From Phoronis australis (Eukaryota; Animalia; Phoronida), in the NCBI GenBank assembly GCA_002633005.1, contig NMRA01000032.1, positions 910,911-974,910 on the forward strand: a stretch of DNA of 64,000 bases. Direction: 5' to 3'. Under the pieces are notes generated by a model that was not told where the DNA came from, made no database searches, and worked only from the letters and a program-made list of their open reading frames with translations. Of the stretch, positions 12,752 to 44,093 are shown piece after piece (within the stretch, counting starts at the first letter, position 1; every line of letters starts with the position of its first letter). The position numbers and the translations under genes were made by a program.

Positions 12752-14067
<1,316 letters not shown>

Positions 14068-22595: not shown

Positions 22596-22644
22596 TTACC
22601 TGTTAGCTTCAATGTTCAACTTTGTTAATGCTCTTTTATGCATT
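22596..22644 (-). CDS. Uncharacterised acylated coiled-coil protein, probable terminal coding exon
   Basis: Strong acceptor TTTTTCCGTTCTTCAG; the phase 2 start fits the donor at 23106. Encodes (V)MHKRALTKLNIEANR-stop. Confidence 0.6.
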
Positions 22645-23106
22645 CTGAAGAACGGAAAAACAACAAAAGTTTTCACAATAATTATCACGCACTCATGACA
22701 CTAAGGTATTTTGTTTTGTATAGAGAGACTATAGTCTGTATCTCTGAAAGTCATGATTGTATTTGGCCTCAAAGTCATATTCTTTAAATTAAAAAATTAC
22801 ATTTTTGTTACTGTGTCAAATATCATCAAATAGATTGTTTACCACAACTAAAATCTTAATTCTTAATTTTCCGATTTCCCGACAATGTATGTTCAGCGAC
22901 TAACTAATAAGATTAAAAAAGCAAGTCATTTTTATACAGAATAAAGTCTCTTTGGTAATGGGTCCACAAGCACATAAATAGACCGAGTAAATTTCTGCTG
23001 TGGACTTTTAATCCGTCTGACATGCATCTTCTCAACGAATGTTTCACAAATCCTGTCCTCACAAATGGATAACAGTTTTCTGGAAATCACATACACCAGC
23101 ACTTAC

Positions 23107-23332
23107 ACCGAGAAATTCATTACAGCTTTCATCACATTGATGTATTTCCTGTTTGATTTAGCGGCCGCCTGCTCTTCAATTTCTTCGCGTGCCATCTGCC
23201 GCTTGCGCCGACTTCGTCGCGCTCTCAGTTTCTCCTGCAGCCCTTGGTCCATGCGAGCCTTGTTCACTTCCTGTGCACGTTTAATTTCCTCCAAGTCTTG
23301 TTCATGCTGTTGCTTGATACTATTAATATCAC
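23107..23332 (-). CDS. Uncharacterised acylated coiled-coil protein, C-terminal coiled-coil/basic exon
   Basis: GTTCCAG acceptor, phase 1. Encodes GDINSIKQQHEQDLEEIKRAQEVNKARMDQGLQEKLRARRSRRKRQ...NFS. The GTAAGT donor overlaps an in-frame TAA. Confidence 0.85.
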
Positions 23333-24177
23333 CTGGAACCACAAAAAAAGGATGGCAATGAATGAACACCTTACAGACACTCCTATGCCAAAATGACGGT
23401 TGGATTACAGGCATCTTATACTCAGATACATTACAGTTATGCTCAATTCTAGTGCTAAAATATTCAACCAGGTGAAAACTGCCTGCTTGCCTGCTTTCCA
23501 TCAGATGCTGGGTGGTTGAAAAGAAGTTGTACAGCAGTTGAAATTAGTTGTTAGAATCTTTCCAGTTTCATACTGGTTGAAACTTTGTCTTGTTATACAG
23601 CAGTTAAAATTTGATCTTGGAAAATGTTTAAAATGTGCTACAGTATTCGACTGAAATTTGGTTTGGAATTTTTCAATTGTATAAGGTTGAAACATTGCTT
23701 TGGAAATTTGTCAGTGGTGCAACCATTGAAAGTTGTACTTCTAGTTGACATACAAGTGTTTTGTAACAGAAAAAGGATGGTATACAAAACAACTGGATAA
23801 TCAATGAAATCATCTCAGGCTCAACTATTCATGGATCCACAGGGGGTAATAAAGCAATTATCTTCCCAGCCAGGACCATAAACCCTAAGTTAAGCTGTGT
23901 TTAGTTACACAGTCCAACTGGGACAGTTGTATACTAAGAGTAGGATTCACACAGAACTGGTTTCACTGACCTTGCATGTCAATTTCAAAAGGCCTATTGT
24001 GTTTGAGTGACACCTATGATTTACAACCGTCCGTTAGAAAAATTCTAAACAAATATGCAGACTAGTTACCTCCTTCAAACCCAAAATGAAAACACTAATA
24101 ACAGTTTTAAGAGTGTCTTGTGCTCATCTGTGAAGCAGACAGAATTAAAAATTACAACATGCAGAAATAGTCCTTAC

Positions 24178-24310
24178 CAAAGAGGTCCTCTGATGATGGT
24201 GGTGGTGCCAACTCGTTCAAAGGCAATGGAGTTGGGGCACTCGTTTGATCCTCCGCACTGGGCAAATCACTGTCACAAGTTTTCATTTCTCCAGTTTCTG
24301 GGTCATTGCA
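24178..24310 (-). CDS. Uncharacterised acylated coiled-coil protein exon
   Basis: TTCTTGACAG acceptor, GTAAGG donor. 133 nt, phase 0 to 1. Encodes CNDPETGEMKT...PTPLPLNELAPPPSSEDLFG. Confidence 0.82.
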
Positions 24311-25232
24311 CTGTCAAGAAAGATTCCAAACATTGTAACTTATACCTAGTTTCAATTGGCCTTCTGCCACAAATCAGTGAGCTCTTGCATCCCAAAATAT
24401 AGACTATTAGATTCACACTCTGCACTAGAGTTAGCTTTCATTTTGCTAGTGCTGAACACCAATGGGAAACCTGATGTTCTCAGCACCTCAATGGAGACAG
24501 GCTGGGTAATCACTGAATGGCAGCTTAAGAATGGCAGCCTCCTTGAATGGCACATAGAAAGATCTATAGACAGTGTTGGCAACCTGATGGTTGGACTTGA
24601 TTATTGCAATATGAGGAAAAACTCAATAAAGACAGTAGACATTGGAAAGTACAAAAAAGTCGAGTAAGAATGCGAAATTTTGAGTTCAGACTCAAACTTT
24701 TAGCCTCAACGATGACGACATTAAGTGCAAACCAGGATTGGACAGTTATAAATCAAAATCATTTTGTACTTGACCATAGAATAACGGACACTCATCTGGA
24801 GATCACACAAAAGTAGAATAGGAAATAATCTTGAATTCGATCATTAGTTGAAATATTAGACCCCAGGCACTGGCGACATCACAAATGACTTTTGAACATT
24901 AAATGGGATTTTAAAACCTGTTTCGCGTGTATGTGTATGGTTGCTTTCAGCCACTGAGTGACCCCAGTATCATAATGCTACACATGTCTGACATATCTGA
25001 TCATCTAAAGAAGGGTGATATGCTCTGGGATATTTAGCAGTTCAAAGACATAGCGACAAAAACTCAACATGCCAACCCAGAGAAGATTCTCCCATAGAAG
25101 GGATAGGTAGTATAGAGAGGACTTGTGGCCACAGGAAGGTTCACATTTTCCCAGTTGCCGATGTATTGTGTTGGTCTTAACTTGTGGGGTGATAGCATGT
25201 ACCCAAAACATGGAAGAGCACAGTATACTTAC

Positions 25233-25336
25233 AGCTGTATCAGTAGGCAGTCCATCATCAGAGCTCAGTGACACTGTGTCCGCCTCTTGGAGTTCGTTAC
25301 TTTGCAGTTCAGCTTCAGTGTCATCCTCTTCTTCAT
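25233..25336 (-). CDS. Uncharacterised acylated coiled-coil protein, acidic exon
   Basis: TGTTGTAG acceptor, GTAAGT donor. 104 nt, phase 1 to 0. Encodes DEEEDDTEAELQSNELQEADTVSLSSDDGLPTDTA. Confidence 0.82.
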
Positions 25337-25851
25337 CTACAACAGCACATAATAATAATAATAACATGATGAATGTAAATGCCCATTTCACTGTGACTGG
25401 ATGTGGCCGAATAAGAACAGATAAAGGAAATATCAAAATCACTTGTCAGTGAACTAGATATTTCTCAATTACGGACATCAAAAGAAAACTTCGTAAACTA
25501 CAGCTTGAGAGAACTTACACACTGGTTCTGGCCTTTAATTTTCTCTACTAGAGACATTTAATTTCTACGACTTGCATACATCAGACACACACATTTCCAT
25601 ACCACACCAAACACATTTACTGCACTTGATTACCTTCGCTGATTCTCATTTGCTGTTGGGTCAATTGGCTCAGATATCTGATTGGTTCTCAATGACAATT
25701 TCCAACTTACAGACCAATCAGATGTCATAGCCAGTCAATCAAATGTAGCTATAAACAATGTCATTTCAAGGAGTCAACAAAACTAGGGGTGTAGACAAGA
25801 CAATTAACACACATTCTTACACAACTTCACATTTACAGAAATATTGTTTAC

Positions 25852-25869
25852 CGATAATGTTGGTTTCAT
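25852..25869 (-). CDS. Candidate 18-nt microexon (phase 1-1)
   Basis: TTTTTCAG ATGAAACCAACATTATCG GTAAAC; frame-preserving (DETNII) and matches the phase of its host intron. Confidence 0.5.
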
Positions 25870-26355
25870 CTGAAAAATTATAGTTGCTCATTACCCACTC
25901 ATCGATTATGCTTTACAATATTCTAATGGAAATGGGCAACACTAAGATCTAGTAAAAATTTTTTAGGCTAATTAGTATCATTTTTATTTACATCTTTAAA
26001 ATCTTTAAAAGAACAAAAATGATTATCGCTAGTGGATGGACAGGCTTGTGAATGTGTCGGTAGAACCCATGGTTATATCATTCAAGTGCCAAAACTGACC
26101 ACAAGAATTTCTCCACTCACATAATTTAATTCTACATCAGTTAGTTGCTTTTTGTCTGGCAAATTTTCGTTACCGACAGTATAAATATGATTTCATACTC
26201 CTTGAACAATAACCAAAAACAACAATAGTGTACATCTTCCAAATTAGACAAATATTTTACACCAATAACATTAGTCTTTTGTTTGTTTTAACAAGCAGCT
26301 CTACATTTCAGAAATCTTCATTGATCATTATTTTTTGTGGATTTATAAAACTAAC

Positions 26356-26509
26356 CTGACTCTTCATCTCCTGGTGCCTCAAAGTCACCATGTTGTTGTG
26401 CAATCTTGGCCTTAAGGAGGCGCAACCGCTCCTTCTTCAATTCCTTCTCCTTTTGGCGGACATTTTGTTTAGCTTTCTCCAAGTCTTTGACAATTGTGTT
26501 AGTTATGAC
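26356..26509 (-). CDS. Uncharacterised acylated coiled-coil protein exon
   Basis: CTTATAG acceptor, GTTAGT donor. 154 nt, phase 0 to 1. Encodes VITNTIVKDLEKAKQNVRQKEKELKKERLRLLKAKIAQQHGDFEAPGDEES. Confidence 0.88.
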
Positions 26510-27484
26510 CTATAAGAAGTAAAGTAAATGAAAGAAAAAATCCCTACAGAAATGTTGGATGGGTCTTCGAGCAAATGATTCAGGTAAGTTTACTAGTATT
26601 ATAACGATAGTAGTCTCATTGTTGGATATTATTCAAAGTTTAATATATGCGCATATGACTGTCTGCTCCAAACATTGGGACCAGTGCAGATATTTTTAAA
26701 AGCCAGCCCATCATAAAACAAAAGTAGAGGCATAAAATAATTCAAAGACAGTTATTACACAAATGTTATTTTAGCTAACGAGTCCACTTAGTGTGCAGAC
26801 CCTTTTAAACAGTTTTCCGACGAACAAACGTAAAGGGTTAGTTTTAAAGTTAAAGTGAACAGGATTTTGATTTATGAAAAAGAGACTTGGGACTGAAGTC
26901 AGAAATTAGGTCAATAGGCTCCACACAACTGTTTCTGAAAACAATTAAATATCACATAACAGTAGTCGATGAGATAATTTATAATTATTGCTAGCCCGTT
27001 ATGTGCTCAAAATTACTTGGCTACACGTATACAGCAATTGTGAAGAGGGCGCATGAGACCAAATCTCTGTCTTAAATCTTAAGGTCACTTTCATGAAACA
27101 GAGCCCTAGTTACCTTAACTTGCAATTTGCTTCATTTATAATACATGATGAACACCTGGGTGATCTCCCCAAACACGAAAATATGCTATATACACCTGTA
27201 TACTCTACAGCTAAGTCTTGTTCAACTATAAAATCATAAAATTCATTCTGAAAAGCACTGACATTTTTTTGCCAAATTACACAGATTTTATTTGCCTGTT
27301 CCCAATAGTTTGGATTTTTTCAGACTAGCAAATAAAGCCTTATATAAATAGGTGAAAAACTACTAACGGCACTTTCTAGAAAGAGTTTTAATAGCAGCAT
27401 ACTTTTGCACTGAAAGCAAGTTATCGATAATGTGCTATTTACTACAAAATTCATGTACGATAACAACACACTGTGATAACTTAC

Positions 27485-27743
27485 GTGATCAAACCATTGC
27501 ACCAATGCAAATGTTCGCCTGTATGTAACAGAGTAACACTCCAGTGCATGCTTGAACCTGTCTGCAGATGTCATGTCCACATAGATATGGTTAATGGCCT
27601 TGTTCAGTGTCTTCACCTCCTCAAGCTTACAATACGGGAACTGAACGGGGTTGAGGTATCGCTGAGCACTGACAATGTTTTGCGATGCTGCGATTAAGTT
27701 GTTGCGAGCTTCTGTAGCCAGACGGTAGCGCTCCCTAGTATTG
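27485..27743 (-). CDS. Uncharacterised acylated coiled-coil protein, helical core exon
   Basis: TTGACAG acceptor, GTAAGT donor. 259 nt, phase 2 to 0. Encodes NTRERYRLATEARNNLIAASQNIVSAQRYLNPVQFPYCKLEEV...LVQWFDH. Confidence 0.9.
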
Positions 27744-28641
27744 CTGTCAATCAAAACAAAATATTTATAGTGTTGGCAGAAATTAATATGTAACGAACCA
27801 CCAGAATGCAAAACTACAGAACTGAGTTTTTTACAACAGCATATGAAGTTGTCTGTGTAGGAAATCAGATACACATTGAAAATACATGAGAAAATCATGC
27901 TTTGCTGAAATCTAATTTGCTGGATGTAGTTGAGTGTCATCTCAGTTCAGCTAGGTCCATTAGAAACTCTGGCCATTTCACAGCGTTTATGCTTCTTCAA
28001 TAATTTGTACAAGAACAGTGAGTGTCATCAATTCAAAATATCACGAACACTGATCTAAGTTCCCGCCGTGTGTAGCGAAGCAAATTACCACATTGGCGAT
28101 GGCTTCACAGCAAAAAACATTACCTGAAAAAATTGCAACATTGTGGATTGAAATTGGGGATTTTGAAATAGAATTCCTTGTGAAACATTGGGTTTGGATC
28201 ATTTTTCTCCAAAAAAATACAAAAAACAATAGCCAAATACCATATGATTGGATACAGGTTGTTGACATTGTTTTCAATCAGGATGTGTTCACCTTTATGC
28301 AAACATACTCATTTCCATTGGGTTTAAAAAAAACCTTCAAACATGGTACATAGCTGACATGCAAGTCATGTTGCCAGACAAAAGACTGTGGGAACGCTTA
28401 ACAAAGAACTAAACTGATTGAATGAAAAATATTAGTAACGAGGGAAACCAAACAAAAAATGGCATGGATCAAGTCGGAGGTTTATGCCACTTTTAAGTAA
28501 GAAAAGATGCTTTACCCCACATACTTTTCAGAGATCCGTCACAGGTCAATCATGGCTGCGAATACCATATTATAGTTAAAGATTTGGATGAAAATCCAAT
28601 ATTTCACGAAAAGAACTAAACCATTTCACATAAATCCTTAC

Positions 28642-28840
28642 TTGACTGTAACAGCTGCCATGGCTAACCAGGATTTTACAGACGTTGACAGCTGAGTCGC
28701 AGCATGATTGATAAGCAGACGAGCACCCTGCCACTTCTGACGGGCCACGCTGACTCGTTGTCTTCGGTCAAGAAGCATGTCCAATTCTGCTTCGAGCTCA
28801 TACTCACGGTCGCTTCCGTATTTTCCATCAAACACCGAAG
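28642..28840 (-). CDS. Uncharacterised acylated coiled-coil protein, helical core exon
   Basis: ATGCAG acceptor, GTAAGG donor. 199 nt, phase 1 to 2. Encodes ASVFDGKYGSDREYELEAELDMLLDRRQRVSVARQKWQGARLLINHA... Confidence 0.9.
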
Positions 28841-29422
28841 CTGCATGGAATAATTAACACCATGTCAACGCAACAAATTGAAATACGTGAGCTTATCGCA
28901 ACACAGACTCTTTCAGAAATTTACATGAAAGGTAACTCTGCTCTTTTGCAAAGGTTGAAAGATACATTGAATGATTGGTCCAATAAAGGAAATGCCACGA
29001 TATTTCTGGAATGTGACAGACAAGCAAAGATGCACACATGAATAACTGTCCAGTTTGTCAACGTTCTTGGTGTGAGAATCACGAATCTTGGTGCAACGTA
29101 CACCAAACCATTGAGGTGATCTATTACTAGATTTATTTAGTGAGTGTTGAAATAACCATAAGGTAAAATTAAGTAGTGATAAGCACAGTAGTGGTAAATA
29201 GTGTGATAGGTGCCTGGAGAATGTTCAGCATTGCAGATAAATACCACAGACTCAGAACGGCACTGTGGTTTTTGGGGATGGTGCTTTTACTCTACCCGTA
29301 ATCACCAAGACAAAGCAACCCATTTGACAAGGAATACCCCAGTAACACAAATTTCCATGTAAAGACTGCTACACATTGAGAAAATGAATCATAATTCCAT
29401 AAAAATTAAAAAACATTATTAC

Positions 29423-29579
29423 CTAATAACTCGTCTTGTGCTTTGTATAACACAAACATCTTTGTTGCTTCATCTTTCTTGGATGCCAATTCCGCATGTA
29501 TTTTGTTTCTTTGGAGAGTTATGCCCTCCAAATCTTTCTTAGCCACCTCTTCTTCATTAAGCGCTTCCAAATACTCTTC
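29423..29579 (-). CDS. Uncharacterised acylated coiled-coil protein exon
   Basis: TTTGCAG acceptor, GTAATA donor. 157 nt, phase 0 to 1. Encodes EEYLEALNEEEVAKKDLEGITLQRNK...AQDELL. Confidence 0.88.
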
Positions 29580-30042
29580 CTGCAAATAGCACCTCACATT
29601 AACAACTTCAAATTCTTGTGAGCAACAGAGGCCAATATGACAAATGCAAGACGGTTCCTTCTTTTAATGGACATTTTTCAACGTAACATATTTTTGCATG
29701 AATCATTTGATCATATCAATGCAAACTAGTGGCAACTGACGACAATCCTAACTAATTATAAAAATGCTGTGAAATCTCAATCCATAAAATCTCCAATTCA
29801 AGACACAGGTGATTAATAGGTGGCGCTAAATGCTGTCTATCCAGTACTCTACTGCCATTTGCAACAGAAAAATGTGTTGCCACTACATCAGAAAATGTCT
29901 AGTACAATGCAGTTTTCTGACAAAATTAACTGACACACTTTCCACAGTCAATGATCACTGAACATGACAGATTCACTCAAGGAATCAAGAAAATGAGGCT
30001 ATTTTGTGAAAAATACTAGAAAAACAACATCATGACACCTAC

Positions 30043-30136
30043 CTGTTCTTTTGACAAGGCAGCGTCAAACTTATCTCTCAAAAATGCCTTCACGTTAGGT
30101 GTATTGACTTTGTCCACGTCTTCTTTTTCCTTTTGC
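30043..30136 (-). CDS. Uncharacterised acylated coiled-coil protein exon
   Basis: TATTTAG acceptor, GTAGGT donor. 94 nt, phase 2 to 0. Encodes QKEKEDVDKVNTPNVKAFLRDKFDAALSKEQ. Confidence 0.87.
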
Positions 30137-30709
30137 CTAAATAAGACATTTCACTCAACATATTGGTTGGGGGCTTAGACAGATAAACTGAATTAAAGCA
30201 ACGGACTTTTGAATAGATAATAATCGACATGCAATTATCCCAAAATGGGGATTCATGAGATATCTATCCTTCCTGCTACTTGGTAACTGGACATTTTAAA
30301 AGTTTGTCTGCTGTGATGACTAAATGTCCCACAATCCGTTGCATGTATGACGTCTGATTCTATCCATTGGAAGGTCATCGCAAGACCGAGGTCGCGCAAT
30401 ATAGTGGATAATTACTAAAATCTCTTATTGTAAGCATTAACTATGCACTTTTTGAAAAAATCTAATATCAAAATTCAACTAAAAATCACGGTAAAAAGGC
30501 CCAAATAATCCCATTTATACCTGTCCAATCCATTTTTCTTATTCAAAATTTTCTGAGACAACAGACAAAGGGCAGCACATACAAAATGATTCAGGCCACT
30601 TTGGGAATTAAACAGATCTAAAATGCAAATTTCACTGGTAAAGCAATCACATATGACCAAGCACTAAGTTACAAAAACGACAAAAATATAACAAAACAAA
30701 CTCTCTTAC

Positions 30710-30891
30710 GTCTTCTGAACGCATCGGTCATAGTGTTCTTGAAGCTGTTTAATCGTATCATTCAATTCAGCCAGTTCATCCATAGTAGCCTTCAGGTTTT
30801 TCAAGTGACTGCAATTCTCCATGTGCCGTATCTGTTTTTCCAGGTTCAAATACTGAGTAAGAAGTTCTGGACCTATTTCCACTTGCTTTAT
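30710..30891 (-). CDS. Uncharacterised acylated coiled-coil protein exon
   Basis: TCTCTATAG acceptor, GTAAGA donor. 182 nt, phase 0 to 2. Encodes IKQVEIGPELLTQYLNLEKQIRHME...LQEHYDRCVQK, a different frame from the ORF listed in the track. Confidence 0.87.
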
Positions 30892-31498
30892 CTATAGAGA
30901 GAACCAAAATGTGGGATGCAATAATCATGCAGCCAAAACCTTGAAGGATGCGAAGGAATTGCATTTGGTCAAACAAATATCTATTTGATCCCTGTTGTAA
31001 GGAAATTTTATAACGCCACTCATGTGAACGGTCATAAAGTTTCAGCCACCTCCTTTGTTGTCAGTCACTTAACAAATTGATACTTAAGATCATTATCAGT
31101 ATGTATGAGCAGCTATCTGAATGTGAACACTCAAGTACAAGAGGACAAACAACCAGCCATTTTCCACTTTGCAGGCATGTACACAGCATTTAACACAAGA
31201 CAAACAGGTGCTTATAAAAAATATGCGTTTCACTAGTATGTAACACTGCATTGGTATATGGTGATGAGTCACCTAGATCTAACACAACAACAAATAACAT
31301 GAGACATCTTTTAATACCTCACGTAACTATTTAACTATTTTAACTCTTTCCTTTGTAATTTACCACTTTAGTCTTAGAGCAGGTGTAAATGCATGTTCCA
31401 TCCAAGAAGCAAAATTTTGACTCAGGCTCCCAATACAAAATTGGTTTCAACTTAAAAGAGAAGTGCTTTCTGGCATTGCCAAATTGAAGAACTGACAG

Positions 31499-31645
31499 CT
31501 CTGGCGGATTTAAAGGGGGGGCCAACGGGACCATGGTCCAACCTAAAATTCATCTAGATTCTATTTGGCAGTTTGGGAGTGCGAATGCCTGACAGGCAAA
31601 ATCCTGNCCCCCCCCCCCCAACTCAAAATCTTTGATCCGCACCTG
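31499..31645. mobile_element. ~147-bp MITE with 5-bp TSD, same structural family as 7169-7325
   Basis: CTCTGGCGGATTTAAAGGGGGGG ... CCCCC..AAATCTTTGATCCGCACCTG, flanked by GACAG at 31494-31498 and 31646-31650. Contains the N at 31607. Confidence 0.72.
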
Positions 31646-31827
31646 GACAGTTTGTTATTCAAAGAGAACACAGCAATTTCGTAATGATAAGTGATCTAAA
31701 TAAAAAAAAAATGCTTTCTGTGAAGATTTATTGCCACTTTAAATAATTTGTAAAGCAATACAAGTCTACTGGTAATTGCCAATTTTACCACAATTACCTC
31801 TTGTAACAGAAGAATGCATTTACTTAC

Positions 31828-31845
31828 CTCAATATCTGTTTCTTC
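31828..31845 (-). CDS. 18-nt microexon (EETDIE), phase 0-0
   Basis: TTCTTTTCTTCTTTGTAG GAAGAAACAGATATTGAG GTAAGT; both splice sites are near-ideal. Confidence 0.75.
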
Positions 31846-32951
31846 CTACAAAGAAGAAAAGAATCAATGTATCACACGATATCAATACATATTGCTATGA
31901 TATCCTATAATCACATCAGAACTATAATCAATCATTTTAATGGTGAAGTAAAGAAAACTAACACAAGACGACACCATAAATGCATCACACCCACTACAAG
32001 AAAAAAAACACAACTATAATTATCAACAAAACCAGCAAAATAAAACAAATCATGCAGATTCTACTCCTGATGACTCATCAGCTCTCAGTGACTGCTTCAC
32101 TTTCATTGCACACCTTAATACAATAAATATTAATATCATTTCTGAGATTCAAAAATAGTGCCAAGTCTTTGGTATTGCACATATGCAATCTAATCAAACA
32201 GACAGTCACAAAAATGAGCGTTATTTTAAGCAGTAATAAACCCGAGTTTCGTCCAAAAAACAAAGTTTTGATTTAGACCACTTGCCATTTTAAAGTGATG
32301 TCAACTTCCACATGAGAAGCTACATCTCTGTTTTCAAAGACCTGACAGTGCGTTGTTCCTTGAGACCATGCTCGGTGCATAAAATGACACACCATGGCAA
32401 GTCAACTGAGCTTGGTTAAGACAATTTCTTTGGAAGCCCAGAAATCATTTTCAACTTGAACAATTCCAGATCAGTTTCAGAATGGTAAGTGGTTCAACTC
32501 AAAAGTTTTTTGGTGATGGAAGGTGGGTTTAATTGTCGTTTCACACAGTCTGTACTACATTAATATTCATGTACTTACAAAAAGCACAATAAGGCAATCT
32601 CAATATCATAATGATACAAAATTAATTCCACAAACTTGTTTTCATAAATTAAACAACAACAAACAACTTCACACTCAAATCATACAGTCTGCAAACAAAT
32701 CAAGATGTACATGAAACCAACCAGGAATAAATAATCAACTTACGCAAATAAATAATAAATAGTTGAAACAATCACAATACCACAACAAAACAAGACAAGG
32801 AGGATACCGCCTCTTTTCTTGAAACATTTAATTATTCTCAAGATCAGAAAGCAAACAACATGGCTGTATTATATGTACAGGTACACACTCCTTGTAAGTT
32901 TTACCGTGTTATCATGGTACACAATGCACTTATTCATATCACACATCTAAC

Positions 32952-35900
32952 CTTCCTAACGCTGTGATGTCTACTATCCATACCAACAGTGACCCCTGAA
33001 ATAATTTGCTCAACACTGACATTAGTTGAATTCTCGTTGGAGACAACCGTTGCAGTTTCAGATTCATTAGACATAACCGTCGTCTGCTCTCTGCTGCAGC
33101 TCAAAGAGCCAAATTTTTCATTAGCTGTGACTTGCTGGTCGTCAATAGATGTCGCCTTGGATTGGCTCTCTGTGCTATCAACTGGCTTGTTATCCTCAAG
33201 AACATTGCCATGTTGTTCATTCACCGTTATGTTGATTTCTGCTTCTGATGCATTGACTACTGTAGAGTTAGAAACCTCTGTATGGTGATGAACGACAGAG
33301 GTGTTATGGGTAATATACGTTTTGTTAACCACCGTCTCCTGAGTGACAAACACACCTGTATGTTGGATAGCAACTTCATGGTCTCCACTAGATTGTGAAC
33401 TATTTCCAGCATCTTCATTTTCAAGAACTTGTTGCTCAACTATCTTGCCATTTTCGTTACTTCCATGTTCCTCATAATTTCCCCGATGTTCAGAAGTGAA
33501 GACAGCTTCACCCTTTTTGAGAGACGAATTTGTCTTCTTTACGTCCAAATTTTGATTTTCCGTGACTGAAAGTTCTACTTCATGGCTACTCTCCAAGGTC
33601 TTCTTCTCTTTTATCTGGCTTTCAGTGACTGAAGTCAATATTTCATGCTCATTATTTTGATATTTTTTCTCCTCCCTCAGAGTTTCAACGACTGAAGTTA
33701 TTATTTCATGGTCATTCTCTGTGTTCTTTTCCTCTTTGCTCTCGGTTACACTGACTGAAGTCACTATGTCATGATTCTCTATGTGCTCTTTCTCTTTCTT
33801 TTGACTTTCAGTGACTGAAGTCACTATTTCTTGGGTTTTCTCAGAGCTCATTTGTACCATGTTTTGGTCTTCATTTACTGAAGTGACTATTTGTTGCTCA
33901 CTCTGAACAACTAACATACATTCTGATTCAGGATTTTGATCAACATCATCGCGATTGCCTTCAGAATCAGAAATGCAGCTCTCTTCTGTTGTGATGTTTC
34001 GTGTGGTCATGGTATTGATGCAAGTCTCTTCACCCTGTTTATGTGACTCATTTGTTCTGCCTGTCTCAAGAACAGAGTTACTACTAGATATGTTGCTTCC
34101 TTCTTCAACATTTGTCTCAGTCACAGAAGTAACCACAGATTCCTCTGTTTGACCTTCTTCAGTGACAACTGTAGTTTTTGTTACTGTAGTTGTGACAGTT
34201 GTAACTGTTATGGTTTCACTTTGGGACTGGCTTGCTTCTTTCATCTGTGTCTCAACCAAGACATCTGAATGTTCTATGTTTTTGTTGTTTTCACTCACCA
34301 TCTGGACTTCAGTAGTAATTTTACCACTGTCCTCTTGGTACTTGCTCGTTTCCATAGAATAATCTTCATGAAAGCTACCTTTTCTAGATTTGTCTGCTTC
34401 AACACTGTTATAAGTGTTGACCTCTTGGTCTTTTTTCATTTCAGTGGAGTCAATAGTGGTATCATTTTGGGATTCTTTTGCTTCAGCAGAAGCATCAAGA
34501 TTACTTTGGCTCTCTGTTGTTTCAAACGAAGTCATAGTAGTTATTACAAATTCTTTGTCCTGGCCAATATTCCTCTTCTCTCCAACTGTTTCTTTGGAGC
34601 TGTTTTTATCAAAAGCTTCATTCTCATCATGAAATACAGCATCTTGTTTGACTTCATCACGCTCTCCATAACGAGTCAGTACATTTATCCTCTCCTCCTC
34701 TTCCACCACAGATGTAACCCGACTACTTTCTTTCATTTCTTCCTCTTTTTTAACTACATGCCAAACACTTTTCTGGTCAACCTTCTCCTCTCCGCTGTTT
34801 AGGTCTTGGTGTCTTCCAGCGTCTTTTTTCTCATCCTCATTCTTTTGCTCATCACTTTCCACATGCACATTTCTCCTATTTTCTGAAAATATGATTTCTA
34901 CTTCTGTATCTGCATCAACAGTACTTTCTGAAACAACTGTTGATGTTACCACTGCAGCTGCTGCTCTAGTTGTTGTTGTTGTTGTTGATATCTCTGTAGA
35001 ACTCACAAGCACTTCAGATTCTGTTTTCTGGCAATTAAGCTCCTTCATTTGCTCTTTATGCATATTTTCCTGCTCAGTTTTTTCTTCTGTGATCTCATGA
35101 CCTGTTTCAGTAGTTTGTTGGAGGATGGTGCTTTCACCTTCAGTAGTACTAGCAGACGTTACAGTTACTGATGTTTCTGACTGCAGATGTGTCTCTGTTG
35201 CATCATCCAGCTTGGCATTGTCACATTCAGTGGGAGACGTGCTTGCTATCACCAAGTGAGAGCCAGTGGATTTCATCTTGTCAGATTGCTCAGCAAAGAA
35301 CTGTCGAGAGTCTTGTCTTGATTCATAACCTTGGAACTCCTCGTGTTTTTGAATATTTACGGATGAGCCGGAGGAGGATGATTGTTGAAAAGTTTTTGCA
35401 TCACCTCTCAAGGATAAAAGAGATGTCTTCGAGGCATTCATTTTCTTTTCATTAGCATCTCTTAAGGATACAAGAGATATCTTTGAGGCATTCATTTTCT
35501 TCTCATTACCATCTCCTAGAGAGACAAGAGATGTCTTCGAGGCATTCTTTTTCTTTTCATTAGCATCTGTTAAGGATGTAAGAGATGTCTTTGAGGCATT
35601 CATTTTCTGTTCATTAGCATCTCTTAAGGACACAAGAGATGTCTTTGAGGCATTCATTTTCTGTTCATTACTATCTCTTAAGGACGCAAGAGATGTCTTT
35701 GAGGCATTCATTTTCCTCTCATCAGTATCTCTCAGGGAAACAAGAGCTGCCTGCGATGCATTCTTTTTCTGCTCATTACTATCTCTTAAGGACACAAGAG
35801 ATGTCTTTGAGGCATTCATTTTCCTCTCATCAGTATCTCTCAGGGAAACAAGAGCTGCCTGCGATGCATTCTTTTTCTGCTCATTACTATCTCTTAAGGA

Positions 35901-36515
35901 CACAAGAGATGTCTTTGAGGCATTCATTTTCTTCTCATCAGTATCTCTCAGGGAAACAAGAGCTGCCTGCGATCCATTCATTTTATGTTCATTACTATCT
36001 CTTAAGGATGCAAGAGATGTCTTTGAGGCATTCATTTTCCTCTCATCAGCATCTCTTAGGGGTAGAACAGATGATTTTGAGGCATTCTCTTCCTTTACCA
36101 AAGCATCTTGTAAGGAAACAAGAGATGACCTAGAAACTTTCGTCTTCTTTACGCCTGCTCCCTTCCCTGAGGATTGGCCAGATTGACATCGACGTGATCT
36201 TTCAGACAGGTCACCACTGCCATAGCCACTGCATTGTTCAGGAGTTTCATCTTCCGAAGACGAAGAGTCTGAAGAAGACGATGACGATGATGATGATGAT
36301 GATGATGAGGAGGAGGAGGAAGAGCTACTTTTGGATTTCTTCTTCTTCTTCTCCTTCTTCTCCATCTTATTCTTTTTCTTCTCCTTCTTCTCCTTCTTTT
36401 CCTTCTTTTCCTTCTCTTCCTTCTTCTCCTTCTTCTCCTTCTTCTCCATCTTCTTCTTCTTCTTCTTCTTTTCCTTTTTCTCCTTCCACTCTAACTGGTT
36501 TTCTGCTTGGATGCT
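32952..36515 (-). CDS. Giant (~3.56 kb, ~1188 codon) low-complexity exon of the uncharacterised acylated protein
   Basis: Lies within the 1224-aa ORF 32934-36608. AAG/GTTAGA donor at 32951 is phase 0. The in-frame AG acceptor at 36517-36516 is weak, so the 5' boundary is uncertain. Flanking exons are phase 0. The product is E/S/T/K-rich and probably disordered. Confidence 0.72.
33555..33900 (-). repeat. Degenerate ~20-21 aa coding repeat (H/Q-E-I-V-T-S-V-T-E)
   Basis: QQIVTSVNE, QEIVTSVTE, HDIVTSVSV, HEIITSVVE, HEILTSVTE, HEVELSVTE; recurring GACTGAAGT on the + strand. Confidence 0.75.
35401..36135 (-). repeat. 54-bp (18-aa) coding tandem repeat, ~13 units, partly as 108-bp dimers
   Basis: E(R/K/Q)K(M/K)NASKTSL(V/A)SLRD(S/A)N alternates with EQKKNASQAALVSLRDTD; CAAGAGATGTCTTTGAGGCATTC recurs on the + strand. 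Confidence 0.95.
36255..36485 (-). repeat. Trinucleotide-type coding tracts: Lys/Glu-rich block followed by poly-Ser
   Basis: (TTC/CTC)n and (GAT/GAG)n runs on the + strand translate on the - strand as KEKKEKKKKKKKMEKK... and SSSSSSS... Confidence 0.9.
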
Positions 36516-38777
36516 CTTGAGTTCCAAATCAGAAATTAACATGTGATGAAAAGTTGACACTAATGAATAACAAAGCAGTGCAACAATTCTGCAATATTCA
36601 TAATTCAAGTTTGGAGGACAAAATCACGCACTCAAGGTCTCCACAGGTTTGGAAATTTGTGACCGCCAGATGAATAGAGGGGCAAAGAATACATTTTAAA
36701 AATATGAAAACTTTAGTAAGTGTTTACCAATAACAATAACTTCACATACATCTATCTAAACCTGTCAGCCAGGGATAAAAGCTCATTATTTTCTGATAGG
36801 CATCAGAAAAAAAATCAATAATTTTGTATGCCCAAGAAATGCACATGTTCTATGAACTTTGCATACGCCACAGTAAAACAGTGGCACTGTTGCAAAAATG
36901 AATTAAACATTGTATGGCGCAAAAAATAAATCATAGAATGATTTCAAATATAACACTTATCAAAATTCATAACAAAGTATTTTAATGTCTTTTAAATTGC
37001 GCTGACCGTCTCATTTAGTAACGCAAATGAAGCGTAATTAACCTGAAATCTTCCCAAAATATAATAGACACAAAGGAACATACTATCAGGCACTTCAAAC
37101 AAGAGCAGATAGACAAGATTTTAACAGACATAAAAGCTACAGGAAAAAATGATTCAAGACATTACAATTGTGCATGTGACTTCTCCGCAGATTTTTCTTT
37201 GACTATATAATAATAAACTTGAGTTTAAAACCGTTGTACTGAACACAAATTCATGAAATTTAATGCCTTTTCACATAAGAATGAAATACACGTTGTTAAA
37301 GATTCAACAAGCTTTTCGAAAAATGTTACCTAAATACCAGAGAAAAAAAATAATAAAAGACATAGCCAAGATAAATTGTACACACAGAAACAGTCTCAAT
37401 CCCTTGTTAGAATAGAAAACAATTAAAATGCCTGCTGACATACGAGTCATGAATCTTAGAAGAAAATGTGAAAGGCAGCTTCTCTTAGTTGTTAGTAAAC
37501 AGGTGAATATGAAGACTGTAGAGATATTAACAACAGTCATGCATGCAACTAAATATTTGGGATAACTAAATCTACTATTAATAGAACCCGTTTTGAAGGT
37601 TTTTTAAACCAAACAGTTACTGAAAGCATTATCTTGAAAATTGTATGTAATGATTTTCACGTTCTTCTAAAAGATGAGCATGTTTCGTTCAGTTTCACAA
37701 ATCCACCTGTATCACTCATTTTTAACATGCAAAAGATGAAGACCCACGCAATGCTAATTAGGTCAAGCCAAAATGGCACTCTTCAATAAATCAAGTTATT
37801 GCGACAAATTTTTTCATTGAAGCTCACTCAAAGTATTCTTTTGTTATGTGTAACCATGAAAAATAACTCACCGTATTAAAAAACAAAGATTTTTCACCTC
37901 AAAACATAAACCAGAACAATTGTGCTCTATTAAGATCACTGTTTTTTGCCTGGCCATGTGAAGAATGAATACATTAGGCAATTTACTTTGCCATTTAATG
38001 GTCACTCTAAATCATGAACCAAATCAATGGCGCTGTAATAAAATGTTCTTTGCTTGCTCACAAAAAGAATAATTGCGTAATTTGCCATTTAATGGTCATA
38101 TGGTCCACTTAAAGGTCCATGCACAGCCACCTTTGAAAACCAATGTTGGTTCATGTTTGGAGCGGAACCCTAAGTAGTTTTTGTTCTTCAATACACCGCG
38201 TTAGCATTAATTACATACCAAAATCGAGTTCATTTATTTATATAAATGTATTGTTATAAATCAGTAAATCAGTGCCTTGGTATAGTATAAGTAAGAAATA
38301 TAAGTCTTCTTACACACCATATGTGGGAATATGAACGACCTATAGTTAAGCCTAGAAAGATATGTTCATTAATTATTTCAACTGGAAAATTAACCACTGC
38401 ATACTTGATTTACTCAAGCATGAAATTTCACCAAATTACCACTGCGTGAGACTAAGGATCTTTTAGTCAAACAATGTTATGTATTAAAAAGAAGTTCCCT
38501 TGTTCAGCCGTGTTACGAATATTGTAACATCAAAAAATAAAACGGGGTTCTATCCTAACATTCTCTGGGTACGGAATCTCATCTTCAAACTCAGACTCAA
38601 CTCAGAATCTAAATTTAGCCAACCATGGTGCACGATTCGAGTTCAATTTTGTTAGTTTATTCAAAGCGTGACATGCGATTGGTCAATTTTGGAAGTCCAG
38701 TTTTGAGTACAGAGACAAGACCCCGGACCCTGGTTTCCATGCAGTAATGCAAGACTACGGGATGGGGAATATCTAAC

Positions 38778-38819
38778 CTCATCTTCATCAGTTTGTAAGA
38801 CGACTTGTGCTTCTTGTTT
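38778..38819 (-). CDS. 42-nt small exon (KQEAQVVLQTDEDE), phase 0-0
   Basis: GTGATTAG acceptor, GAG/GTTAGA donor; open and frame-preserving. Confidence 0.65.
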
Positions 38820-39113: not shown

Positions 39114-39143
39114 CGACTCAGAGGCCTGGGGTGGGGATTGGTT
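39114..39143 (-). CDS. 30-nt microexon (NQSPPQASES), phase 0-0
   Basis: TTTTGTGTTTCAG acceptor, GTAAGC donor; a GC-rich island in AT-rich intron sequence. Confidence 0.72.
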
Positions 39144-40651
39144 CTGAAACACAAAATATGTCATATTTAGCACAAAAATGCTCATTACTTAAAAAAACAA
39201 GATAACAGTTCATAGAAAGCTCTTTTTTACTAATGCCAAACTTTGACTTTTTGTTTCAGGGATAAAGTCACGATTTTATAGCTCTTCGTTATTACATACA
39301 CATTTCCAGCGCATTCGTTGAATGAGCAAAAATTAAAATCAAATAAAACGTAAATTAATAAAGAAAAATAACTATGTTTGGATATTTAATTCTTGTCCCG
39401 AGCTTTTTTAGGATCTATAATTTACTGAATTTTGACCTATCAAAAGCCAATAGTCACTCAGTTTTAAGTAAATAATGTATGGCAAAAAGTACTGTACTTG
39501 AACACCACTAAGTTAAAATCAAGTGATTTTGGCTAATTTCAAACACTGCTTTCCAATTGGTAGCATATCACAAATGACGAAGCACTGAAATGTTGAAGTA
39601 AAGTGATCGTAGTTCATCATTGTGCCTATGGTTACTACAAACTAAAGTTGCGACTGACAGGCAGTGTTATAGACTATAGCAAACAAAAAACAATCAGACA
39701 AAATGACCCAGAATTCCCCGACATGACGGCTGGGCGCAAACAGAAATTTAAATCATGATAACTGAGTGCAAGAAGAAACCACCATCAGAGCCATCAGAAT
39801 GATCCACCATGATAACTGTCATGAAATGGAAACGATATTTTGTCTGATTACTTTTGATTTGTACTACAGTTCAGTTTGCGGAAGCACTCGACAGACAATA
39901 AGTGGCACACACAACTTCCTGACACGTGAGCTAGCAATCAAACAAAACCAGCAAGCAACAGAAAAGCATAACATAACAATGAAAAAACTTCCCTACTTTG
40001 GAATTATGTCCATGAATTTTAAACAGTCATCAAGAAAACGTAGAGTTATGGCAGTGATTTGTTAATGAAAAATGTTCTTGTTCTCTAATGATCAAAAATT
40101 GTGAAAATTTTGCCTGCTTCAGTGTTGGCAATTAAAGAGATCATCTTAAATGACATTTAAAAGCACAATATTTCAGCCGTGGATCGTTAACTGAATTGGT
40201 GCTTGTGGTCACGGGAACATTATGTTAATGAAAATGAACAAACCCAAAAAATGAAGTGTGGTAAATCCTCGTGTTAAACAAATGCAATGGTTTTTGTTAT
40301 TGGAAAATCGAGTGCAAGGCATGAATTTTACAAAAAAATGAAATCAATGTAACAAGACTTTTTCCAGAATTCTAGTCCTTTCCTGAACCAAGAACTTTAT
40401 GAAGTAAAAGTCAAAAATGGGGATACTGCCATTAGTGGCCAGGCTATCCCATTGCGAAATCATATCAGTAACAATTCTTTGATTTATTCTACCAATAGAC
40501 AAACAGATTTGCCATTGACAACAGCACAACAGGCAAAAAATCAATAATGTTATCAGATCACATAATCCATAATCAATAATAAACTTGTTTTATGTTGTAC
40601 TACATATTGTTAGTGTTCTAATTAAATGTCACAATGTACTTAATAACATAC

Positions 40652-40789
40652 AACATTAGATCCAGCAGTGGTTGAAGAAGTAGCCGTCTGATCAGGAATA
40701 TCGTCTGCTGCTTTGTGAGTCGGAGCAGACGATGGTTGACTTTGCTGAGTGTCATAAGAATGTTGTTGTGGTTTATGCAATGTGCCATT
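40652..40789 (-). CDS. Uncharacterised acylated protein coding exon 2
   Basis: TTTACAG acceptor, GTATGT donor. 138 nt, phase 0-0. Encodes NGTLHKPQQHSYDTQQSQPSSAPTHKAADDIPDQTATSSTTAGSNV. Confidence 0.78.
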
Positions 40790-41824
40790 CTGTAAACAGT
40801 GATCACAGTGCAGCATCTTTAAACAAGAAGCATTATAAATTAAAAGGAAGTCAGTCGGTTAAATTGGACTGTGGTGCAAACTGGGTTAAATAAAAACGGA
40901 AGTTTTGGCTCAACATAGAAACCACAGTCTGAAATCAATTTCCAAACAAGCCTGGTGGTTAAAACATGATGTTACAAGCTGATAACAGTTACAGTAAGCA
41001 AAACAAGGTCAACAGGGGTCACTTAGATAAATTTGCATAGTAAAAACAAATCGCACATTATGCCAGTTCACTGTACCATCAAGTTGTCTATTTATCATTC
41101 CAGAACTGAGACCCTAGACTATTGCGCAATTTGAATTGGTTACAGCAAACTTCTGTGCCCAAGGTTTCATTCAGAAAAAATGGTACAGGAGCGTTCTCAT
41201 GAGGTAAAAACTACCTATATCAGTATTGTAACTCTTTAAATGTACTCTCATTTCAATGCCTTACCCAATAGAGTGGACCATTACAGAAAAAATAAAAGAA
41301 AGAAAACAATTGCCAGGATAATAATTGTTTCTGTAAAAAGCCATACCCATAGCAAAACCTCCATAAAATGTCAGTCCACAACAATACCAGACTTGACAAA
41401 AGTACTGCCCAAAGGAATTGGCGAAAAATAGACCCATATGGATACCAGACTTGCCAAAAACCTTACCCGTTTGGAAATTAAAATCGATGAAAACCAAACC
41501 AATTTCGTCGCCAAATTCAGCAAAAACCCTAACCATTTCATTGGCACATGTGCACTCACCTATACCATGGAACCCTCCCCCCATCTTAGTTTAGAATGTT
41601 TTAACAAGATCCTGGAAGGGTTAGTTGTGATGCAGTTTCACTGAACATCTTTTTTACAAGCTCGACCTACTAACTAGAGGTTAAATCATATACATTTATA
41701 AATATGCAAGCTAACCATGTTAACCAAGCACGAAACCACTACTTTCAAGCCAAAACCACACAAGGCTTACGAGTAATATTTGATGCACACGGTGCAGCCA
41801 TAGCTATGCAAGCAACTAACATAC

Positions 41825-41995
41825 CGACTTTGGATCGTCATTAGTAACAATGACCTGCGTCTGCGTGTGCTGTTGAGGTTGTACTGGTGCCACAGGTTTC
41901 TGTGCTGGTCCTCCGTATGGCTGATGTGTAGGTTGTCGAGGATAACCAGGCGAGGTGTGCGAAGACGGAACAGGAGCGCTTGATCCACATCCCAT
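41825..41995 (-). CDS. First coding exon (copy A) with MGCGSS myristoylation/palmitoylation motif
   Basis: TTTTATAG-ACA-ATG. Encodes MGCGSSAPVPSSHTSPGYPRQPTHQPYGGPAQKPVAPVQPQQHTQTQVIVTNDDPKS; GTATGT donor, phase 0. The ORF track lists only other frames here. Confidence 0.82.
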
Positions 41996-43922
41996 TGTCT
42001 ATAAAATAAACCAAAAGCTTTTCATTTAAGCCTCTACAAATCATATTCTAATTCTAAAAACATTCAACTATCATCTCTTGCATATTTGCTCTCCCAAAGC
42101 AACCTCATCACGTTATCCATTGTTTGAATTGAAATTAATAACAATAATAAATCATCTGGTAGCCATATTTCCTTGGCAGCCAAATATTTCCCAAGCAGCC
42201 ATACTTCCCTGACAGCCAAATTGCCTTGGTGAGAACCTGTGGTGAGAAGCAACTTGACTGGCCTGGTCCATGTTGTCTTCCTATACAGAGCACATCCTAG
42301 CTTTTAAGTAAGAAAGAATTTCCCTATGCAGTCTTAAAGTGAAATAGTTTTATTCATGTGATTCACTTCAAGCTCAATTCTAAAATAGCGACAGCGTATG
42401 TATCTAAGCCAATTAACGAGTACGGTTCGTACTAAATTTAGAACGCTAAAAAAATGGACAAGTGAGCAGACTAAAGTTATACTGATTACGTATGCGTAAT
42501 TTAAAAGGTTTAGTCGAGATTATTTTTCTCAAGGGTCCTAAATTGTCTTGCCACTTACCGCCATTTTGCGTTCGTTGTGTCATCATCTGCTCATTATGCA
42601 CCCGCGCTGTGGAATGAGTACCCCGACTGACTGGTCCGCCAGTCGGGGTACAGCCATGTTCTTTATCAGTTTGACAGTGACAAACCAATGTTTACATAGT
42701 CCAGCTCTCTTATTGTCTGCTTTCATCTGATAAGCTCACGACTTTCAACAAATGTCATGAAGCAGATGTGTTTTGTATGAAATACTTTCACCAAAAAACT
42801 TGGAATAAAGAAAAAACAATTGACTTTCAGAGAAATTACTAGACTTAACTTTCACCTGTAGATTCCTTTGTGTGAGTGTAAGCTCTGATGGGCACAGGAT
42901 TGTGTACCAACACAAAAGACTTTTACTTGCCTGACAAATTTAATCGAGCATGATTCTAGATTAGATCATGATAGTGGAAATTTCTTGATTTTTACACTGG
43001 AGAATTGTATGTAATGACAGAGCATAGCTTTTAAGTAAACATGTCTCAAAACAACAAATCCAGAAAGACTTGAAGTGATAACTGTGATTCATGGTATTCT
43101 CGATAGAAAGGACCGCAACAACGTAGCGACATCTTGTGTTTAATACAGTGAAACTTTAAAGTTAGTACAGTGGAATGTTAGTCCAGTCAAATGAGAAAGG
43201 TGACGAATTTGGTAGGGTAGGTTATCACACTGATCTAAGATATGCTCCAACCGCAAACTAGTCAGGACTAACTCTACAGCAAAACCAGCTTTGGATTATG
43301 AAATCAACAGAACTAGAAATTCTTCTAATATTTCATACACTCAAACAATTTCCACTTCTTAAATGTGCAATGCTATCAGTTGTGCATATTTTCTTCAGTC
43401 NAAAAGAAAACAACTGCCAGGATAATAATTGTTTCTGTAAAAAAACATACCCATAGCAAAACGTCCATAAAATGTCAGTCCACAACAATACCAGACTTGA
43501 CAAAAGTACTGCCCAAAGGAATTGGCGAAAAATAGACCCAGATACCAGACTTGCCAAAAAACTTACCCGTTTGGAAATTAAAATCAATGAAAACCAAACC
43601 AATTTCGACGCCAAATTCAGCAAAAACACTAACCATTTCACTGGCACATGTGCACTCACCTATACCATGGAACCCTCCCCCATCTCAGTTTAGAGTGTTT
43701 TAACAAGACCCTGGAAGGGTTAGTTGTAATAAAGTTTGACTGAACATCTTTTTACCACCTCGAGCTACTAACTAGAGGTTAAATCATAAACATTTATAAA
43801 TATGCAAATTAACCATGTTAACCAAGCACCAAACCACTACTTTCAAGCCAAAACCACACAAAGCTTATGAGTAATATTTGATGCACACGGTGCAGCCATA
43901 GCTATGCAAGCAACTAACATAC

Positions 43923-44093
43923 CGACTTTGGATCGTCATTAGTAACAATGACCTGCGTCTGGGTGTGCTGTTGCGGTTGTACTGGTGCCACAGGTTTCTG
44001 TGCTGGTCCTCCATATGGCTGATGTGTAGGTTGTCGAGGATAACCAGGCGAGGTGTGCGAAGACTGAACAGGAGCGCTTGATCCACATCCCAT
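43923..44093 (-). CDS. First coding exon (copy B), duplicate or allele of 41825-41995
   Basis: Same splice sites. Four substitutions versus copy A: three synonymous and one P10Q. Confidence 0.75.

What the first reader, a model, noticed from the sequence alone, without database searches (positions are those of the whole stretch)
22596..44093. Unnamed dual-acylated coiled-coil gene with a tunable disordered spacer (giant exon plus microexons)
Seen: 16 small exons plus one giant exon splice with fully consistent phases into one ORF, ~657 aa without and ~1845 aa with the giant exon. The order is MGCGSS, a P/Q/S-rich linker built entirely from phase 0-0 exons (138, 30, 42, ~3564, 18 nt), a helical/coiled-coil core, an acidic linker, and a basic coiled-coil tail. 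Established: Gly2/Cys3 with Ser6 is the classic N-myristoylation plus palmitoylation signal, common in membrane-tethered and ciliary/flagellar proteins. Inference: every linker exon can be skipped in frame, so splicing could set the distance between membrane anchor and core from about 60 to about 1300 residues. I do not recognise the core as a named family.
Basis: partly seen in the sequence, partly recalled or inferred. Interest (0 to 1): 0.8.

Follow-up and report, generated by a model that had tools for sequence, protein, structure and literature searches.

The report
CIL-7/Sayonara gene with rare giant exon
This is an invertebrate's copy of a known coiled-coil protein family (worm CIL-7, fly Sayonara), predicted to be lipid-anchored and likely acting on ciliary vesicle membranes, and it carries an unusual, weakly transcribed 3.6-kb reading frame that likely yields a rare giant form, probably without the lipid anchor.

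Summary
The exon chain is real: 16 small exons give 657 aa, or 1845 aa with the giant exon. RNA reads confirm 6 of the 12 proposed junctions in the part examined.

The core is not unnamed. It matches insect proteins named synr and nematode homologs, which places it in PTHR21974, the family of fly Sayonara and worm CIL-7 (PMC10107002). In CIL-7 the Gly2 myristoylation signal is already shown to be essential (PMC4571341). Sayonara's BH3 motif is absent here.

In-frame linker skipping is annotated in the Lingula and Lineus orthologs, so small-scale tuning is plausible.

The giant frame (1229 open codons) is coding and has a phase-0 donor, but RNA depth is 10% of the core or less and no junction read was listed. 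Its proposed acceptor is a weak AAG, whereas the 15 acceptors scored are all YAG. Both orthologs have a non-acylated alternative N-terminus at this slot. An alternative first exon (about 50%) is favoured over a spacer cassette (about 35%).

The second MGCGSS exon is probably an assembly duplication. Verdict: a variant of a known family.

The parts
43923..44093 (-). MGCGSS exon, copy a (57 codons); probably the second haplotype of copy b
   Evidence: 4 nt differences from copy b, 3 of them synonymous; lies in a 2115-bp duplicate abutting the N at 43401
41825..41995 (-). MGCGSS exon, copy b: Gly2/Cys3/Ser6 acylation signal plus P/Q-rich linker
   Evidence: motif shared by homologs; not examined by RNA
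40652..40789 (-). linker exon E2, 138 nt, phase 0-0
   Evidence: sequence only
39114..39143 (-). linker microexon E3, 30 nt, phase 0-0
   Evidence: sequence only
38778..38819 (-). linker microexon E4, 42 nt, phase 0-0
   Evidence: sequence only
32952..36515 (-). giant exon: Lys-rich start, poly-Ser, 18-aa repeats, long acidic S/E/T/V region; 5' end unresolved (frame open from 36623; in-frame ATGs at 36542 and 36449); phase-0 donor at 32952
   Evidence: sense RNA depth 0.19/0.28/0 in three runs, and contig pieces in run X1
35405..36087 (-). 54-nt (18-aa) tandem repeat, 12.6 copies, inside the giant exon
31828..31845 (-). E6, 18-nt phase 0-0 entry exon (EETDIE); counterpart of EKTEIE, the exon shared by all four Lingula isoforms
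30710..30891 (-). core exon E7
   Evidence: junction to E8 in RNA; homology
30043..30136 (-). core exon E8; holds the site equivalent to Sayonara's BH3 motif (not a BH3 here)
29423..29579 (-). core exon E9
28642..28840 (-). core exon E10
27485..27743 (-). core exon E11, most conserved part (55-64% identity to other phyla)
26356..26509 (-). core exon E12
25852..25869 (-). candidate 18-nt phase 1-1 microexon in the acidic linker
   Evidence: acceptor 2.8 bits; inclusion unresolved in RNA
25233..25336 (-). acidic linker exon E13
24178..24310 (-). E14: acidic linker and conserved proline motif
23107..23332 (-). E15: conserved tail helix with basic end
22596..22644 (-). E16: last coding exon with stop
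   Evidence: contig piece in X1 runs into the 3' UTR

Best explanation
The gene encodes a member of the CIL-7/Sayonara coiled-coil family (PTHR21974) whose common 651-657-aa form is predicted to be myristoylated on Gly2 and palmitoylated on Cys3 and likely acts, as worm CIL-7 does, as a membrane-tethered scaffold for shedding vesicles from cilia, while the giant frame is likely a rare alternative first exon giving a long form without the lipid anchor.

Shown here: homology to the family, the N-terminal motif, splicing of most core exons, the open giant frame and its low-level sense transcription.

Predicted: the core fold, an antiparallel helical hairpin followed by a four-helix bundle and a separate tail helix (modelled on homolog P0014).

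Inferred from worms: the lipid anchor puts the protein on the ciliary membrane, where the core helps concentrate cargo such as polycystin-2 at budding sites.

Inferred from orthologs: small phase-0 exons vary the linker by tens of residues.

Inferred, about 50%: a second promoter starts the giant exon (ATG 36542 or 36449), which splices to the 18-nt exon E6. The product would have about 1690-1720 aa, with a Lys-rich, acidic, disordered N-terminus in place of the lipid anchor, so that promoter choice would switch membrane targeting on or off.
For: Family: the spliced short form aligns with Periplaneta synr P0172 (29%, E 1e-24), Halyomorpha synr P0269 (26%, E 3e-12), Ascaris P0272 (33%, E 1e-76), Nippostrongylus P0151 (30%, E 1e-50) and Lingula P0017 (51%). 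The best of 30 shuffled queries scored 26.9 bits against 76-486 for these hits (names). Synr and CIL-7 are both placed in PTHR21974 (PMC10107002). CIL-7 has Gly2, diverged homologs have Cys3, and G2D abolishes function (PMC4571341). The trees place the window protein among lophotrochozoans with weak support. Nematode homologs match through the C-terminal tail (to residue 612) while insect synr matches stop at about 465-477, so this gene is nearer the CIL-7 type. Fold: mean pLDDT 84.6, pTM 0.63.

Giant exon joined to the core: of 174 GT sites in the frame, the only phase-0 one scoring as a donor lies 5 codons before the stop (threshold set on that site, so optimistic). Both listed base differences in X1 contigs within it are synonymous (2 of 2; 146 rows of that table not shown).

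First-exon reading: 15 of 15 acceptors scored are YAG and the giant one is AAG. The single phase-0 YAG among 50 phase-0 AG sites scores -8.5. Base composition turns from intron-like to coding-like at about the ATG 36542. Lingula X2 and Lineus X5 replace MGC with an S/E/D-rich N-terminus at the exon just before the core; Patella X3 also lacks the MG start.
Against: A lysine-flanked poly-Ser module like the one opening the giant exon lies inside the linker of 8 of 70 MG-starting homologs, which fits an internal exon. There is no TATA match and no CpG rise upstream of the giant exon. The Lingula X2 and Lineus X5 N-termini are under 100 aa and align to the giant exon only at low-complexity level. 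A confirmed acceptor (E8) also scores low, 1.3 bits, on a model of only 15 sites. The ortholog isoforms are database annotations, not experiments. D. melanogaster Synr and C. elegans CIL-7 themselves were not compared; the link runs through NCBI gene names and the paper's family statement. Nothing tested here shows a ciliary location in this animal, and fly Synr is reported on autophagosomes.
Confidence: 0.55

Rival explanations
1. One reading: the giant frame is a cassette exon. A rare 1845-aa isoform keeps the lipid anchor and holds the core about 1300 residues from the membrane.
For: The donor is phase 0 and the best phase-0 acceptor gives a clean frame. All neighbouring linker exons are phase 0. 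Linker cassettes are annotated in Lingula and Lineus. The Lys/poly-Ser module occurs in the linkers of 8 of 70 MG-starting homologs. No promoter signal was seen upstream.
Against: The acceptor is AAG with no pyrimidine tract, 1.9 bits. Linkers in 67 of 70 MG-starting homologs that could be measured are 11-243 aa, and no N-terminal extension exceeds about 250 aa in 110 homologs. The search of 1146-3270-aa proteins found none among 7988 candidates (weak by the tool's own note). Orthologs use this slot for a non-acylated start.
Confidence: 0.35
2. The giant frame is transcribed but not joined to the core: either a terminal exon ending at its own stop (32936-32934) after the MGC exons, or a separate nested single-exon gene.
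For: Run X1 holds giant-exon contigs but no depth in the bins of core exons E7-E15. In X3 the bin 32597-33064 holds about 304 letters although only 113 nt of it are exon, so some reads likely run into the intron. An ATTAAA lies at 32832.
Against: The only phase-0 donor-like site lies 5 codons before the stop. The lay tool warns that holes in contigs prove nothing. Unspliced pre-mRNA explains the X3 reads equally well.
Confidence: 0.15
3. The protein works like fly Sayonara, as a BH3-type activator of apoptosis through Bcl-2 proteins.
For: Same family. Synr binds Buffy and Debcl even without its BH3 motif (PMC10107002), so the core might bind Bcl-2 proteins.
Against: There is no L-x3-[GAS]-D anywhere in the 651-aa form. 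At the equivalent site it has Leu and Asp with Phe in the small-residue position; of 52 aligned proteins only the mosquito one has the minimal motif there. The paper calls the motif a dipteran innovation.
Confidence: 0.1

Closest known systems
C. elegans CIL-7 (W03G9.7), PTHR21974
   Same: N-terminal myristoylation motif, variable linker, coiled-coil core. Nematode homologs match over both core and tail at 30-33%.
   Different: Cys3 here against Ser3 in CIL-7. No giant isoform appears in the parts of the papers read. CIL-7's own sequence was not compared.
Drosophila Sayonara (synr, CG14044), PTHR21974
   Same: Homologous core (26-29% to insect proteins named synr); those insect proteins also start MGC.
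   Different: No BH3 motif here. The insect proteins lack the conserved proline motif and basic tail helix and have short linkers.
Lingula anatina LOC106177002 and Lineus longissimus LOC135499251
   Same: 51-52% identity. MGC first exon with skippable linker exons, and a non-MGC alternative N-terminus. Lingula shares the six-residue entry segment.
   Different: Their alternative N-termini are under 100 aa; here the frame is about 1190 aa with 18-aa repeats.
Giant cassette exons of big tau and giant ankyrins (recalled, from no call)
   Same: One very large exon adding a long disordered segment to a rare isoform.
   Different: Unrelated proteins; the cassette nature is not shown here.

Membership tests
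PTHR21974 (CIL-7/Sayonara) | Sequence homology of the coiled-coil core to named members | tested here: met
   E 1e-24 and 3e-12 to proteins named synr, shuffles at most 26.9 bits; profile search
PTHR21974 (CIL-7/Sayonara) | Score against the PANTHER model, or direct alignment to fly Synr and worm CIL-7 | not testable with these tools
   No PANTHER library, and neither sequence was returned by a search; Pfam and NCBIfam have no family for the core
PTHR21974 (CIL-7/Sayonara) | N-terminal Met-Gly-x-x-x-Ser/Thr myristoylation motif with a small third residue | tested here: met
   MGCGSS; motif as stated in PMC4571341. The modification itself was not tested.
PTHR21974 (CIL-7/Sayonara) | Long coiled-coil, all-helical core | tested here: met
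   AlphaFold2 model of homolog P0014 from an alignment holding six window exons, pLDDT 84.6
CIL-7-like ciliary EV regulator | Location in cilia and extracellular vesicles; needed for polycystin-2 vesicle release | not testable with these tools
   Needs experiment; the sea urchin and anemone ciliome tables (supplements of 10.1101/153437) could not be seen
BH3-only protein (Sayonara proper) | L-x3-G/A/S-D motif in the inter-helix region | tested here: not met
Giant cassette (spacer) exon | Phase-matched donor | tested here: met
Giant cassette (spacer) exon | Usable phase-matched acceptor | tested here: inconclusive
   Only a weak AAG site, scored on a 15-site model
Giant cassette (spacer) exon | Inclusion junctions on both sides in RNA | tested here: inconclusive
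BAR or ESCRT-III/PspA-type membrane-shaping fold | Structural match standing above generic helical bundles | tested here: inconclusive
   Foldseek no hit at E <= 0.001; VIA best Z 13.2 (rmsd 2.2, 120 aligned) among tied generic bundles

The most novel reading that the evidence does not exclude
The CIL-7/Sayonara family has a giant isoform not found in the homologs or papers examined: a 3.6-kb exon with 18-residue repeats spliced between the lipid anchor and the core. One gene would then make both a short membrane scaffold and a form that holds the core about 1300 disordered residues from the ciliary or vesicle membrane.
Probability: 0.35. Interest if true: 0.5.

Novelty: new variant of a known kind. 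Interest (0 to 1): 0.3.

Why it matters
CIL-7 is a known regulator of vesicle shedding from cilia, and how it works is still open. This locus and its orthologs suggest that the family controls its own membrane anchor through first-exon choice and linker splicing. That gives natural variants (anchored short, unanchored, giant) with which to test what the anchor, linker and core each do. The searches also extend the family, with the MGC start and tail intact, to the filasterean Pigoraptor and a ctenophore, beyond the invertebrate range given in the CIL-7 paper's text. The giant exon itself looks lineage-specific and rare, so the general impact is modest.

Tried and rejected
Library and structure searches: Pfam on 7 window exons and 14 homolog scans, and NCBIfam on 6 proteins, gave no family above cut-off for the core. 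Foldseek against the PDB gave no match at E <= 0.001. VIA gave only generic hairpin and four-helix-bundle matches. The ESM Atlas gave no usable hit for the giant exon.

Search for giant homologs: the longer-protein search found none. It covered only 1146-3270 aa and is weak evidence. The metagenome scan gave 1 locus from 543 pattern matches, an intronless homolog with no bearing on the giant exon.

Not available: no whole genome is held. No RNA holder was listed by shared words; the runs came by species label. A homodimer prediction of the core could not be run because the queue was full, so self-assembly is untested.

Uninformative or negative checks: the amphipathic-helix scan showed only ordinary coiled-coil faces. 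The 3'-end coding scan was out of frame and was not used. The regex linker count measured only 33 of 70 proteins and was replaced. Earlier findings of this scan returned nothing.

Rejected: a true tandem pair of MGC exons (more likely two haplotypes at a gap; a similar 305-bp duplicate follows the N at 13765), and a BH3-only role.

Literature: PTHR21974 occurs in 1 paper of the library. A search for five ortholog identifiers and W03G9.7 returned only the CIL-7 paper. The listings showed no paper on this family in marine invertebrates or on a giant isoform.
Full report
Observation. The gene lies on the minus strand of an AT-rich animal genome. Without the candidate 18-nt exon 25869-25852 the short form has 651 aa. 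The giant frame is open for 1229 codons against at most 133 in 200 shuffles. It holds a Lys-rich start, a poly-Ser run, 12.6 copies of a 54-nt repeat and a long acidic region with 2% aromatic residues. Disorder is inferred from that composition.

The MGCGSS exon is present twice, in a 2115-bp duplicate (95.65% identity) that abuts a single N at 43401. Three of the four exonic differences are synonymous, and a similar 305-bp duplicate follows the N at 13765. Two haplotypes joined at a gap is the likely cause.

RNA. Reads were laid on 22301-36330 only: three stranded raw runs with the same coded species label, 18-19% of each read, and one contig set guessed to be RNA. Six of the 12 proposed junctions in that stretch are listed, all on the expected strand, plus an E12-E13 joint that leaves the microexon unresolved. 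Sense depth over core exons is 3.2, 2.8 and 0.76; over the giant exon it is 0.19, 0.28 and 0; in three intron-only bins it is 0, 0 and 0.07. That amounts to roughly five read pairs on the giant exon, with no junction listed. Run X1 has giant-exon contigs (depth 7-29), and its two listed differences there are both synonymous, but it has no depth on core exons E7-E15, which is unexplained.

What the core is. Exon E11 found homologs at 55-64% identity. A profile search found 962 representatives at E <= 0.001, of which the best 150 were listed. Named members come from cnidarians, a ctenophore, molluscs, a brachiopod, a nemertean, an annelid, echinoderms, hemichordates, amphioxus, arthropods, nematodes and Pigoraptor. 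Twenty of the unnamed representatives were looked up; two clusters carry the name synr (Halyomorpha, Periplaneta). The spliced short form aligns to them at E 3e-12 and 1e-24, to Ascaris and Nippostrongylus at 1e-76 and 1e-50, and to Lingula at 51%; shuffled queries reach 26.9 bits at most. Trees of 52 proteins place it among lophotrochozoans beside Lingula, with weak support.

What is known. Ikegawa et al. (PMC10107002; parts 1-4 of 7 read plus passages, supplements listed but not read) put fly Sayonara and worm CIL-7 in PTHR21974 and call the BH3 motif a dipteran innovation. Maguire et al. (PMC4571341; parts 1-3 of 6 read, supplement legends searched, one file and the tree figure not seen) show that CIL-7 needs Gly2 for function and vesicle targeting, and note Cys3 in diverged homologs. 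Passages of 10.1101/2021.02.04.429799 say that CIL-7 enriches PKD-2 at the ciliary tip for shedding. Of 10.1101/153437 only passages were seen; its closed ciliome tables may bear on a ciliary location. Fly Synr and worm CIL-7 sequences were not compared directly, so membership rests on NCBI gene names, the nematode homologs and the paper's family statement.

Anatomy. The model of homolog P0014 (pLDDT 84.6, pTM 0.63) has an antiparallel hairpin, a four-helix bundle, a low-confidence acidic linker and a tail helix. It matches only generic bundles in the PDB. The window protein has no L-x3-[GAS]-D motif; at the equivalent site only the mosquito protein, of 52 aligned, has it. Nematode homologs share the C-terminal tail and insect synr proteins do not, so CIL-7 is the better functional guide. 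Of 116 Met-starting homologs of 340 aa or more, 61 start MG and 51 start MGC; many of the other 55 may be partial or alternative forms.

The linker. Annotated Lingula isoforms X1, X3 and X4 and several Lineus isoforms differ by in-frame linker segments, which supports small-scale tuning. Lingula X2 and Lineus X5 replace the MGC start with another N-terminus just before the core, and in Lingula the shared entry segment EKTEIE matches the window's 18-nt exon EETDIE. The giant exon sits immediately 5' of that exon. Its donor looks real: it is the only phase-0 donor-like site of 174 GT sites, 5 codons before the stop (threshold chosen on the site). Its acceptor is doubtful: AAG against 15 of 15 YAG, 1.9 bits, and the single phase-0 YAG among 50 sites scores -8.5. 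Coding-like composition begins at about the in-frame ATG 36542.

Against the first-exon reading: a Lys-flanked poly-Ser module lies in the linkers of 8 of 70 MG-starting homologs; no TATA or CpG signal lies upstream; the confirmed E8 acceptor also scores low; and the orthologs' alternative starts are short and show no significant similarity to the giant exon. My odds are first exon about 50%, cassette about 35%, not joined to the core about 15%. No N-terminal extension above about 250 aa was seen in 110 homologs, and the long-protein search was empty but weak.

Verdict. The gene is a member of a family with two characterised members, and its acylation signal has been tested in worms. The giant exon is a real, rare and apparently lineage-specific addition whose role as a tunable spacer is unproven and somewhat disfavoured. 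New variant of a known kind; interest 0.3. The comparison with big tau and giant ankyrin, and the names Rab11 and SRBD1 for the neighbours, are recalled and come from no call.

Noticed in passing
window 41299-43400 and 43403-45511: 2115-bp tandem duplicate (95.65%) on either side of a single N; it doubles the MGCGSS exon and is probably two haplotypes joined at a gap.
   Followed up: yes
window 13076-13378 and 13766-14067: 305-bp duplicate (95.4%) just after the N at 13765, likely the same kind of assembly junction.
   Followed up: partly
window 12752-13174 (+): Exon of a Rab11-like GTPase (name recalled from the translation), convergent with this gene.
   Followed up: no
window 5631-5903 and 2075-2326 (-): Exons that look like SRBD1/Tex-like S1 RNA-binding protein (name recalled).
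   Followed up: no
P0244, P0197, P0187: Distant homologs with added domains or an early origin: P0244 (unnamed, fungal-like by my guess) has a CUE domain above cut-off, the Mnemiopsis protein has a PDZ domain, and Pigoraptor keeps the MGC start and the tail.
   Followed up: partly
P0003 residues 45-385 (Atlas): Leads below the tool's bar: an Ascomycota cluster (0.89), an archaeal zinc-ribbon cluster (0.77) and a Bacillota model (TM 0.37). A deeper, possibly prokaryotic, origin of the core is untested.
   Followed up: no
window 24178-24230 and 23107-23332: The proline motif plus basic tail helix is conserved from Pigoraptor to amphioxus and nematodes but missing in the insect synr proteins examined; a candidate binding module.
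   Followed up: partly
window 33435-36242, run X1: X1 contigs cover giant-exon pieces and the last exon but none of core exons E7-E15; unexplained.
   Followed up: partly
window 23870-24544, 31560-31700, 32130-32600: Intronic stretches with reads on both strands at mostly 90-95% identity and loose ends: dispersed repeats.
   Followed up: no
L001:876-2957: Intronless 693-codon frame of a family member resembling the octocoral protein P0049, probably transcript-derived.
   Followed up: no
window 46198-46451: 126-bp two-copy tandem repeat upstream of the coding start.
   Followed up: no
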